A stretch of DNA of 64,000 nt from Escherichia coli. Its GTDB lineage: Bacteria > Pseudomonadota > Gammaproteobacteria > Enterobacterales > Enterobacteriaceae. Made by a program: the position numbers and the translations under genes. The notes below the pieces were generated by a model. The model saw only the letters and a list, made by a program, of their open reading frames with translations, was not told where the DNA came from and searched no databases. Shown piece by piece: positions 60,785 to 61,222 of the stretch. The stretch lies in NCBI RefSeq assembly GCF_016026235.1, contig NZ_CP065613.1. One strand, given 5' to 3'. How positions within the stretch are numbered: the first letter of the stretch is position 1; each line of letters begins with the position of its first letter.

Positions 60785-60796
60785 ATCCACAAATCT

Positions 60797-60872
60797 ATAA
60801 CTACGGTTATCCAAAGTAAAATAATAAAGGTTATTGCTATCTTTTATAACTTGGGTTATCCTTGGTTATAAG
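60797..60872. promoter_or_regulatory. Candidate oR operators between cI-like and cro-like genes
   Basis: ATAACTACGGTTAT (60797-60810) and ATAACTTGGGTTAT (60846-60859) plus half-sites. Confidence 0.55.
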
Positions 60873-60895
60873 TAATGGCTGAAAGAGGTATGCTC

Positions 60896-61120
60896 ATGAA
60901 TTTAGTAATTCAACGAGCCTTGAAGATTGTCGGTAGTCAAAAGCGGCTTGCCGACAAGTGTGGTGTAACGCAGCCAGCAGTACACAAATGGCTGAAAGGC
61001 GGGCAGGTTTCTCCAGAGAAAGTTACCGCCATCGTTAACGCCACTGGAGGGCAGATCAAGGCTTACGAAATTCGCCCAGATTTACCACACCTGTTTCCAA
61101 AACCGAATCAGGCAGCATAA
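60896..61120 (+). CDS. Cro-like repressor
   Basis: ORF 60875..61120 with start at ATG 60896 after aagagg SD; HTH QKRLADKCGVTQPAVHKW. Confidence 0.7.
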   Translation: MNLVIQRALKIVGSQKRLADKCGVTQPAVHKWLKGGQVSPEKVTAIVNATGGQIKAYEIRPDLPHLFPKPNQAA

Positions 61121-61158
61121 GTAACACCGCTATTTTCACAATGGGCATTCGTCCTACG

Positions 61159-61173
61159 TCGCTGACAAAGCGA
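61159..61173 (+). promoter_or_regulatory. Candidate nutR boxB hairpin (UCGCU-GACAA-AGCGA)
   Basis: 5-bp stem with GACAA loop downstream of cro, preceded by CUACG as at the nutL candidate. Confidence 0.5.
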
Positions 61174-61202
61174 GCCCCAAGATATCTGACCAACTAAGGC
61201 CA

Positions 61203-61222
61203 TATGCGTTTCCACGCATAGC
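61203..61222 (+). terminator. tR1-like hairpin before cII
   Basis: atgcgt/acgcat stem with loop ttcc followed by agctttc. Confidence 0.35.

What the first reader, a model, noticed from the sequence alone, without database searches (positions are those of the whole stretch)
60785..61222. oR operators, nutR boxB and tR1-like hairpin on the rightward side
Two 14-bp palindromes ATAAC-nnnn-GTTAT lie between the cI-like and cro-like starts, followed after cro by a UCGCU-GACAA-AGCGA hairpin preceded by CUACG (as at nutL) and a short terminator-like hairpin before cII. The repressor gene appears to start immediately at the operator edge, consistent with a leaderless pRM-type transcript.
Basis: partly seen in the sequence, partly recalled or inferred. 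Interest (0 to 1): 0.35.

Follow-up and report, generated by a model that had tools for sequence, protein, structure and literature searches.

The report
Lambdoid prophage immunity switch and nutR
This is an ordinary lambda-type prophage control region: three repressor-binding sites between the repressor and cro genes, followed by the known H-19B/933W-type N-utilisation site and a lambda-tR1-like hairpin; it is real but not new.

Summary
Together they form a lambda-style tripartite OR with 24/25-bp spacing. Two more sites lie at pL, 2.4 kb to the left.

Perfect copies number 3 in the window against 0.06 expected. In eight related immunity regions (about 71-99% DNA identity) the half-sites are nearly invariant, while the central 4 bp and the spacers vary. 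Immunity regions of other types have no such sites.

The segment from the end of cro to cII is about 95% identical to phages H-19B and 933W. It carries the nutR annotated in 933W (61128-61173, boxB 61159-61173). The window also encodes an N protein 98% identical to H-19B N.

The hairpin before cII (61196-61225) matches the lambda tR1 hairpin in position and partly in sequence. It has no U-tract, so it is not an intrinsic terminator. The H-19B tR1 is Rho-dependent by experiment.

A leaderless cI mRNA is plausible: a TAGATT -10 hexamer sits 7 nt upstream of the ATG and there is no Shine-Dalgarno sequence. This was not tested.

The operator motif was already predicted for phage PA28 (PMC4587872). 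Interest is low.

The parts
60077..60784 (-). cI-type repressor gene, 235 aa. It has an N-terminal HTH and a C-terminal S24 autocleavage domain (Ala111-Gly112, Ser152, Lys189 by direct reading).
   Evidence: Pfam Peptidase_S24 at 3.5e-18 and HTH_3. RefSeq relatives are annotated from the same ATG. The N-terminal domain is closest to the 434 repressor among solved structures, E = 1e-7.
60792..60820 (-). Putative pRM: -35 TTTACT (60820..60815), 17-bp spacer, -10 TAGATT (60797..60792). The A of the cI ATG is the 8th nt after the -10 hexamer, giving a 0-2 nt leader.
   Evidence: 8 of 12. The same TAGATT sits at the same place relative to OR3 as the lambda pRM -10. Both hexamers are conserved in 8 relatives. 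The assignment is inferred, not mapped.
60797..60810 (.). OR3, ATAACTACGGTTAT. It occupies the spacer of pRM.
   Evidence: The half-sites are invariant in 8 relatives while the central 4 bp vary (TACG/CACG/TCAG).
60821..60834 (.). OR2, ATAATAAAGGTTAT (1 mismatch). It abuts the pRM -35 and overlaps the first base of the pR -35.
   Evidence: It is a perfect ATAACAAAGGTTAT in SH2026Stx1, Ec222 and ET729.
60846..60859 (.). OR1, ATAACTTGGGTTAT. Its right half overlaps the pR -10.
60834..60862 (+). Putative pR: TTGCTA, 17-bp spacer, TATCCT.
   Evidence: 8 of 12. It has the same geometry as pL (TTGACC-17-TATCTT, 9 of 12) relative to oL2/oL1. The TATC(C/T)T hexamer is kept in the relatives.
60896..61120 (+). 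cro gene, 74 aa, with Shine-Dalgarno AGAGG at 60884-60888.
   Evidence: Pfam YdaS_toxin and P22_Cro. The start is conserved in 8 relatives. The recognition helix starts TQPAVHK, against SQPAIQK in cI (direct reading).
61128..61173 (+). nutR: boxA-like CGCUAUUUU (61128-61136); spacer with a small hairpin GGGC-AUUC-GUCC (61143-61154); CUACG; boxB UCGCU-GACAA-AGCGA (61159-61173).
   Evidence: It aligns column for column with the nutR annotated in 933W and with the boxA and boxB annotated in HK106. It is 95.5% identical to H-19B.
61196..61225 (+). tR1-region hairpin, core AUAUGCGU-UUCC-ACGCAUA, with no U-tract.
   Evidence: -10.7 kcal/mol, z = -3.35. It is identical in H-19B, 933W, HK97 and HK106. 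It aligns with the lambda hairpin UAUGCA..UGCAUA. Hairpins occupy the same place in P22, SH2026Stx1 and PA28.
61259..61558 (+). cII gene, the downstream target of N antitermination.
   Evidence: Pfam Phage_CII, 9e-35.
58419..58460 (-). oL1 (58422-58435, perfect) and oL2 (58447-58460, 1 mismatch), with pL TTGACC-17-TATCTT.
   Evidence: An equivalent pair occurs in every relative.
58336..58370 (-). nutL: spacer hairpin GAUUC..GAAUC, CUACG, then boxB GCGCUGACAAAGCGC.
   Evidence: z = -3.1. It is 100% identical to H-19B from about the pL start onward. The boxB is identical to the P22 nutL boxB.
57787..58170 (-). N antiterminator gene, 127 aa.
   Evidence: Pfam N_peptide. It is 98% identical to H-19B N. 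The arginine-rich motif RSRRRER at residues 12-18 is as described in PMC3526286.

Best explanation
The interval is the rightward half of a lambda-type immunity region of a lambdoid (Stx-phage-like) prophage.

Inferred from sequence and comparison:
- Dimers of the repressor (60077-60784) and of Cro bind three 14-bp operators, ATAAC-N4-GTTAT, spaced 24 and 25 bp centre to centre.
- Repressor at OR1 and OR2 covers the -10 hexamer and the edge of the -35 hexamer of pR. With oL1 and oL2 it does the same at pL, 2.4 kb to the left.
- Repressor at OR2 abuts the -35 of the weak pRM and probably activates it.
- OR3 lies in the pRM spacer and shuts pRM off when occupied by Cro or by excess repressor.
- pRM probably starts at or within 2 nt of the cI AUG, giving a leaderless mRNA.

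Supported by near-identity to elements studied experimentally: after induction, pR transcripts read cro and then nutR. The boxB hairpin is bound by the H-19B-type N protein made from pL. N lets RNA polymerase pass the Rho-dependent tR1 zone, which includes the conserved hairpin at 61196-61225, and read into cII and the replication genes.

Module structure: the imm module (about 58415-61110) is one recombination cassette set between H-19B-type nutL/N on the left and nutR/cII on the right.
For: Operators: statistical excess. Eight relatives conserve the half-sites while the central and spacer bases vary, and each has 3 OR plus at least 2 oL sites at the same spacing. In 36 sites the half-site is A 72, T 70, A 71, A 72, C 63 out of 72. 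No site occurs in the immunity regions of lambda, P22, 933W, H-19B or HK106.

Proteins: cI has HTH plus S24 domains, and cro, cII and N are all identified. cI and Cro share the start of the recognition helix, (S/T)QPA(I/V)xK. The cI N-terminal domain is most like the 434 repressor, which also uses 14-bp operators.

Promoter geometry mirrors lambda, including an identical TAGATT hexamer.

nutR matches the annotated nutR of 933W and HK106. N is 98% identical to H-19B N and nutL is 100% identical to H-19B. The H-19B nutR/tR1 is an experimentally used Rho-dependent terminator that N overcomes (PMC1950744, PMC3526286). The intergenic RNA has more C than G, 37 against 23.

The same operator strings were predicted for PA28, whose repressor is 85% identical.
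Against: No binding, transcript-mapping or termination data exist for this sequence. pR and pRM score only 8 of 12, and equally scoring hexamer pairs exist nearby. OR2 is imperfect in this prophage. Only two convincing oL sites exist. The boxA-like element has 2 mismatches and is not statistically distinguishable on its own. Rfam has no family that matches.
Confidence: 0.87

Rival explanations
1. The hairpin at 61196-61225 is a Rho-independent (intrinsic) terminator, which is what the reader's phrase 'terminator-like hairpin' suggests.
For: The hairpin is stable and significantly better than shuffled sequence. It sits where early rightward transcription is known to stop in lambdoid phages.
Against: Only UUU follows the stem, and the consensus scan did not call it. 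The near-identical H-19B region terminates in a Rho-dependent way (PMC1950744, PMC3526286).
Confidence: 0.07
2. The hairpin is not part of the termination mechanism. It might instead be a 3'-end stabiliser of the terminated cro mRNA, an RNA-processing site, or a modulator of cII translation or of the antisense pRE transcript.
For: A hairpin is present at this place in five otherwise unrelated spacer types: lambda, P22, the H-19B type, SH2026Stx1 and PA28. This argues for a structural role that is independent of sequence. From memory, lambda tR1 deletion studies place the required rut elements around boxB, not at the hairpin.
Against: No direct data. In lambda the Rho-dependent 3' ends cluster just after the equivalent hairpin (from memory), which fits a pause role.
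Confidence: 0.3
3. cI is not leaderless. Maintenance transcription would start further upstream, for example from TTATAA-17-TATTAT at 60849..60821, giving a leader of about 30 nt.
For: This hexamer pair also scores 8 of 12.
Against: Its -10 hexamer lies inside OR2 and is not conserved in relatives, where it reads TGTTAT. The leader would have no Shine-Dalgarno sequence. The TAGATT and TTTACT hexamers are conserved and placed as in lambda.
Confidence: 0.08
4. The palindromes are chance features of an AT-rich intergenic region.
For: The region is AT-rich.
Against: 3 perfect copies against 0.06 expected, with no shuffle out of 100 reaching 3. The sites cluster at exactly the two places expected for oL and oR and are conserved across relatives.
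Confidence: 0.01

Closest known systems
Bacteriophage lambda OR/OL switch (cI, cro, pR, pRM, pL)
   Same: Divergent cI and cro genes. Three operators spaced 23-25 bp apart. A second operator cluster lies about 2.4 kb away. The operators overlap pR, pL and pRM in the same way. The pRM -10 hexamer TAGATT is identical and sits next to OR3. The cI ATG is 7-8 nt after it.
   Different: The operators are 14 bp, ATAAC-N4-GTTAT, not the 17-bp TATCACCGCCAGTGGTA type. The repressor DNA-binding domain is 434-like, not lambda-like. Only two clear oL sites exist. DUF3024 and ORF177 take the place of rexAB.
Predicted operators of Stx2a phage PA28 (PST3), Yin et al. 2015, PMC4587872, Additional file 6
   Same: The repressor is 85% identical, with an identical recognition helix. 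The half-sites, number of sites and spacing are the same.
   Different: The central 4 bp differ. PA28 has a phage-21-like nutR, not the H-19B type. The OL and OR labels in the published table appear swapped relative to the gene order in KP682381. The PA28 sites are computational predictions only.
nutR/tR1 of phages H-19B, 933W, HK97 and HK106
   Same: 95-96% DNA identity from the cro stop codon to cII. The boxB is identical, the boxA-like element is identical to H-19B and 933W, and the hairpin is identical. The cognate N is 98% identical.
   Different: Three point differences from H-19B in the spacer and just after boxB (G61145, C61175, G61181). They do not fit a consistent compensatory pattern.
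P22 nutL boxB (GCGCUGACAAAGCGC)
   Same: The window's nutL boxB is identical, and nutR has the same GACAA pentaloop.
   Different: P22 has a canonical boxA (CGCUCUUUA) 9 nt upstream. The window's nutL has no boxA match within 2 mismatches. The N proteins share only the arginine-rich motif type.
Phage 434 repressor and its operators (ACAA-N6-TTGT)
   Same: It is the best solved-structure match of the N-terminal domain, E = 1e-7. The Gln at the first recognition-helix position is kept. The operators are 14 bp with A at position 1.
   Different: The recognition helix is SQPAIQK against TQQSIEQ. The half-site is ATAAC with a 4-bp centre, so the specificity differs.

Membership tests
Lambda-type immunity region (OR/OL genetic switch) | Divergently transcribed cI (HTH plus S24 autocleavage domain) and cro genes across a short intergenic region | tested here: met
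   Pfam hits. The intergenic region is 111 bp (60785-60895).
Lambda-type immunity region (OR/OL genetic switch) | Three similar, dyad-symmetric operator sites at about 24-bp spacing in OR, and a second cluster at pL | tested here: met
   oL has only two good sites.
Lambda-type immunity region (OR/OL genetic switch) | Operators overlap the pR, pL and pRM hexamers | tested here: inconclusive
   The geometry matches lambda and is conserved. However, pR and pRM score only 8 of 12, and other candidates exist.
Lambda-type immunity region (OR/OL genetic switch) | Repressor and Cro bind the operators, which gives immunity | not testable with these tools
   Needs EMSA or footprinting, or immunity tests.
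N-utilisation site (nutR), H-19B/933W/HK97 type | boxB stem-loop (5-bp stem, GACAA loop) between cro and cII, at the position of the annotated nutR | tested here: met
N-utilisation site (nutR), H-19B/933W/HK97 type | boxA-like element upstream of boxB | tested here: met
   CGCUAUUUU at 61128-61136 is identical to H-19B and 933W and sits at the position of the boxA annotated in HK106. It has 2 mismatches to the consensus and is not significant on its own.
N-utilisation site (nutR), H-19B/933W/HK97 type | A cognate N protein with an arginine-rich motif is encoded in the same element, with a matching nutL | tested here: met
N-utilisation site (nutR), H-19B/933W/HK97 type | N-dependent antitermination | not testable with these tools
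   Shown for H-19B nutR in PMC3526286, not for this sequence.
Intrinsic (Rho-independent) terminator | G+C-rich stem followed immediately by a U-tract | tested here: not met
   The stem has 3 G-C pairs out of 7 core pairs and the tail is AGCUUUCAAC. The scan did not report it.
Lambda tR1-type Rho-dependent terminator region | Lies between nutR and cII, has RNA with more C than G around boxB, and has a hairpin homologous to that of lambda tR1 | tested here: met
Lambda tR1-type Rho-dependent terminator region | Termination requires Rho | not testable with these tools
   Shown for the 95.5% identical H-19B segment (PMC1950744).
Leaderless cI mRNA (lambda pRM type) | -10 hexamer 6-8 nt upstream of the start codon, with no Shine-Dalgarno sequence | tested here: met
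   TAGATT, then 7 nt, then ATG. Relatives have 6 or 7 nt.
Leaderless cI mRNA (lambda pRM type) | Mapped 5' end at the AUG | not testable with these tools
   Needs 5' RACE or dRNA-seq.
434 immunity specificity | Operators of the form ACAA-N6-TTGT | tested here: not met
   The operators are ATAAC-N4-GTTAT, so only the fold and length class are shared.

The most novel reading that the evidence does not exclude
The repressor/Cro pair may represent an immunity specificity that has not been characterised experimentally. It would be 434-like in fold and in its 14-bp operator length but would read ATAAC-N4-GTTAT. The type occurs in about 3% of complete E. coli genomes, including Stx1 and Stx2 prophages of the PA28 and SH2026Stx1 type. 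This copy has a weakened OR2 and only two oL sites, which could change lysogen stability.
Probability: 0.45. Interest if true: 0.22.

Novelty: new member of a known kind. Interest (0 to 1): 0.12.

Why it matters
The main use is for annotation. It fixes the operators, promoters, nut sites and module boundaries of an immunity type carried by 163 of 5426 complete E. coli genomes, among them Shiga-toxin prophages. Immunity type governs superinfection exclusion between co-resident Stx prophages and, through repressor occupancy, how readily toxin production is induced. Nothing here changes the current picture of lambdoid regulation.

Tried and rejected
- Rfam, E-value mode over 57000-62200, gave only one chance-level hit elsewhere, so no curated family covers nut, tR1 or oop.
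- I suspected that the window's two differences from H-19B (A to G at 61145, U to C at 61175) were a compensatory pair supporting a long-range helix that encloses boxB. I rejected this because HK97, 2B8 and 75/02 combine A with C.
- A full-text search for the operator strings found no relevant paper. The PA28 prediction turned up only in a supplement.
- A PDB sequence search with N found nothing useful. The P22 link was shown instead by reading the P22 nutL.
- A boxA consensus search of the whole window gave 165 hits against 169 expected, so it is uninformative on its own.
- The window's replication gene is not homologous to the SH2026Stx1 O gene.
- One call failed on coordinates and one on term length.

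Full report
**What is there.** Window 57.8-61.6 kb is a complete lambdoid early-control region. On the minus strand, from high to low coordinates:
- cI-type repressor, 60077-60784 (HTH plus Peptidase_S24)
- a DUF3024 gene, 59698-60039
- a 177-aa ORF, 58975-59508
- N, 57787-58170 (Pfam N_peptide)

On the plus strand:
- cro, 60896-61120
- cII, 61259-61558 (Pfam Phage_CII)

The finding covers the cI-cro intergenic region and the cro-cII intergenic region.

**Operators.**
- A perfect ATAAC-N4-GTTAT occurs three times in the 64-kb window against 0.06 expected.
- The third perfect copy lies at 58422-58435, next to a one-mismatch copy at 58447-58460. These overlap a TTGACC-17-TATCTT promoter that points at N, so they are oL1/oL2 and pL.
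OR is therefore tripartite, with 24- and 25-bp centre-to-centre spacing; lambda has 23 and 24 bp.

**Comparative test of the operators.** I collected relatives of this immunity type:
- phages SH2026Stx1 (repressor 96.6% identical) and PA28 (85%) and a Salmonella phage contig
- E. coli prophages down to 71% DNA identity

In the alignment of eight cI-cro intergenic regions, the ATAAC and GTTAT half-sites of OR3 and OR1 are invariant. Those of OR2 are nearly so, and OR2 is a perfect palindrome in most relatives. The central 4 bp and much of the inter-operator DNA vary.

Every relative has three OR sites and at least two oL sites at the same spacing. A count over 36 sites gives A 72, T 70, A 71, A 72, C 63 out of 72 for the half-site, with no conservation outside the 14 bp. 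The immunity regions of lambda, P22, 933W, H-19B and HK106 contain no such site.

**Proteins that would read the operators.** Repressor and Cro share the start of the recognition helix (SQPAIQK and TQPAVHK), as expected for two proteins that read the same sites. Among solved structures, the repressor DNA-binding domain is closest to the 434 repressor (E = 1e-7). That protein also uses 14-bp operators beginning with A, and the Gln at the first recognition-helix position is kept.

These are therefore operators of a distinct specificity, although binding itself is inferred. The same strings were already listed as predicted operators of PA28 in Yin et al. 2015 (PMC4587872, Additional file 6). That table's OL and OR labels appear swapped relative to the gene order I see in KP682381.

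**Promoters and the leaderless start.** By position the switch copies lambda.
- TTGCTA-17-TATCCT (60834-60862, plus strand) has its -35 touching OR2 and its -10 inside the right half of OR1. This is the same geometry as pL relative to oL2 and oL1.
- On the minus strand, TTTACT-17-TAGATT (60820..60792) has its -35 abutting OR2 and OR3 in its spacer.
- TAGATT is the lambda pRM -10 hexamer at the same place relative to OR3.
- The A of the cI ATG (60784) is the 8th nt after the hexamer (7th in lambda). Relatives have 6 or 7 intervening nt, and no Shine-Dalgarno sequence is present.

A leader of 0-2 nt is thus the most likely reading. Both promoters score only 8 of 12, and other 8-of-12 pairs exist in this AT-rich DNA, so the assignment rests on homology and conservation.

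**nutR.** From the cro stop codon onward the window stops resembling its immunity-type relatives. It becomes 95-96% identical to H-19B, 933W, HK97 and HK106.
- The nutR annotated in 933W maps to 61128-61173.
- The boxA and boxB annotated in HK106 map to 61128-61136 (CGCUAUUUU) and 61159-61173 (UCGCU-GACAA-AGCGA).
- The N protein is 98% identical to H-19B N and includes the RSRRRER motif (PMC3526286).
- The nutL region is 100% identical to H-19B from about the pL start.
- The nutL boxB, GCGCUGACAAAGCGC, is the P22 nutL boxB.
In both nut sites it links a small spacer hairpin to boxB.
- nutL has no boxA-like match.

The immunity cassette (about 58415-61110) is thus a mosaic module inserted between H-19B-type N/nut modules.

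**The hairpin before cII.** The stem-loop at 61196-61225 is stable (-10.7 kcal/mol, z = -3.35) and identical in all phages of the H-19B type. It aligns with the lambda hairpin UAUGCA-UUUAUU-UGCAUA followed by UUCAA. From memory of the lambda literature, the Rho-dependent tR1 ends cluster there.

Hairpins also occupy this position in P22, SH2026Stx1 and PA28, although their spacers are unrelated in sequence. The window's hairpin lacks a U-tract and was not called by the terminator scan, so it is not an intrinsic terminator.

The H-19B nutR/tR1 fragment is a standard Rho-dependent terminator that N overcomes (PMC1950744, PMC3526286, PMC4150792). The window's intergenic RNA has more C than G, 37 against 23. 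'tR1-like' is apt as a statement of homology; the precise role of the hairpin (pause site, 3'-end stabiliser or other) remains open.

**Verdict.** The architecture is textbook. The nut/tR1 part is already known through H-19B and 933W. The operator motif has been predicted for a close relative but, as far as I could find, never tested. This immunity type occurs in 163 of 5426 complete E. coli genomes. I rate it a new member of a known kind, of low interest.

Noticed in passing
window 62030-63500 (transposase ORF 62063-63259, minus strand): An IS110-family element, 99.6% identical to annotated ISEc20 copies, interrupts the first replication gene (HTH_36 ORF starting at 61721). The prophage is probably replication-defective.
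   Followed up: partly
window 58953-60039: A DUF3024 gene (59698-60039) and a 177-aa ORF (58975-59508) lie downstream of cI in the position of lambda rexAB. A symmetric hairpin AAAGCCCCG..CGGGGCTTT (58953-58976) with A and T runs on either side looks like a bidirectional terminator that ends the pRM operon.
   Followed up: partly
window 61249-61281 and 61504-61534: By homology with the HK106 annotation there is a pRE -10 hexamer TAAGAT (61254..61249) and a CII site TTGC-N6-TTGT (61281..61268) on the minus strand. An oop-like terminator lies on the minus strand inside the 3' end of cII (61534..61504).
   Followed up: partly
window 60865-60869: An extra GTTAT half-site lies 10 bp after the right half of OR1, near the predicted pR start. 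It is conserved in the E. coli relatives but absent in the S.Kent and ET729 versions. Its role is unknown.
   Followed up: no
window 60821-60834 and 58468-58481: OR2 carries ATAAT instead of ATAAC in this prophage and in E. coli F8704-2 only. The position where ET729 has a third oL site (ATCACATAAGTTAT) holds only a half-site here (GATAAATAAGTTAT).
   Followed up: partly
L002 (KP682381, PA28) 1997-2035 and 3224-3286: The published operator table for PA28 (PMC4587872, Additional file 6) lists the cI-cro sites as OL1-3 and the N-side sites as OR1-3. This looks swapped relative to the gene order.
   Followed up: partly
L013, L014, L015 (phages 75/02 Stx, 2B8, VT2-Sakai) nutR: These nutR regions are otherwise near-identical but have a boxB with a GAAA tetraloop (UCGCU-GAAA-AGCGA) instead of the GACAA pentaloop. 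This presumably matches a different N.
   Followed up: no
window 58667-58801 (minus strand): A 44-aa ORF is annotated as hypothetical in RefSeq relatives. It lies between oL and ORF177, has no Pfam hit, and is flanked by further hairpins (58823-58850).
   Followed up: no
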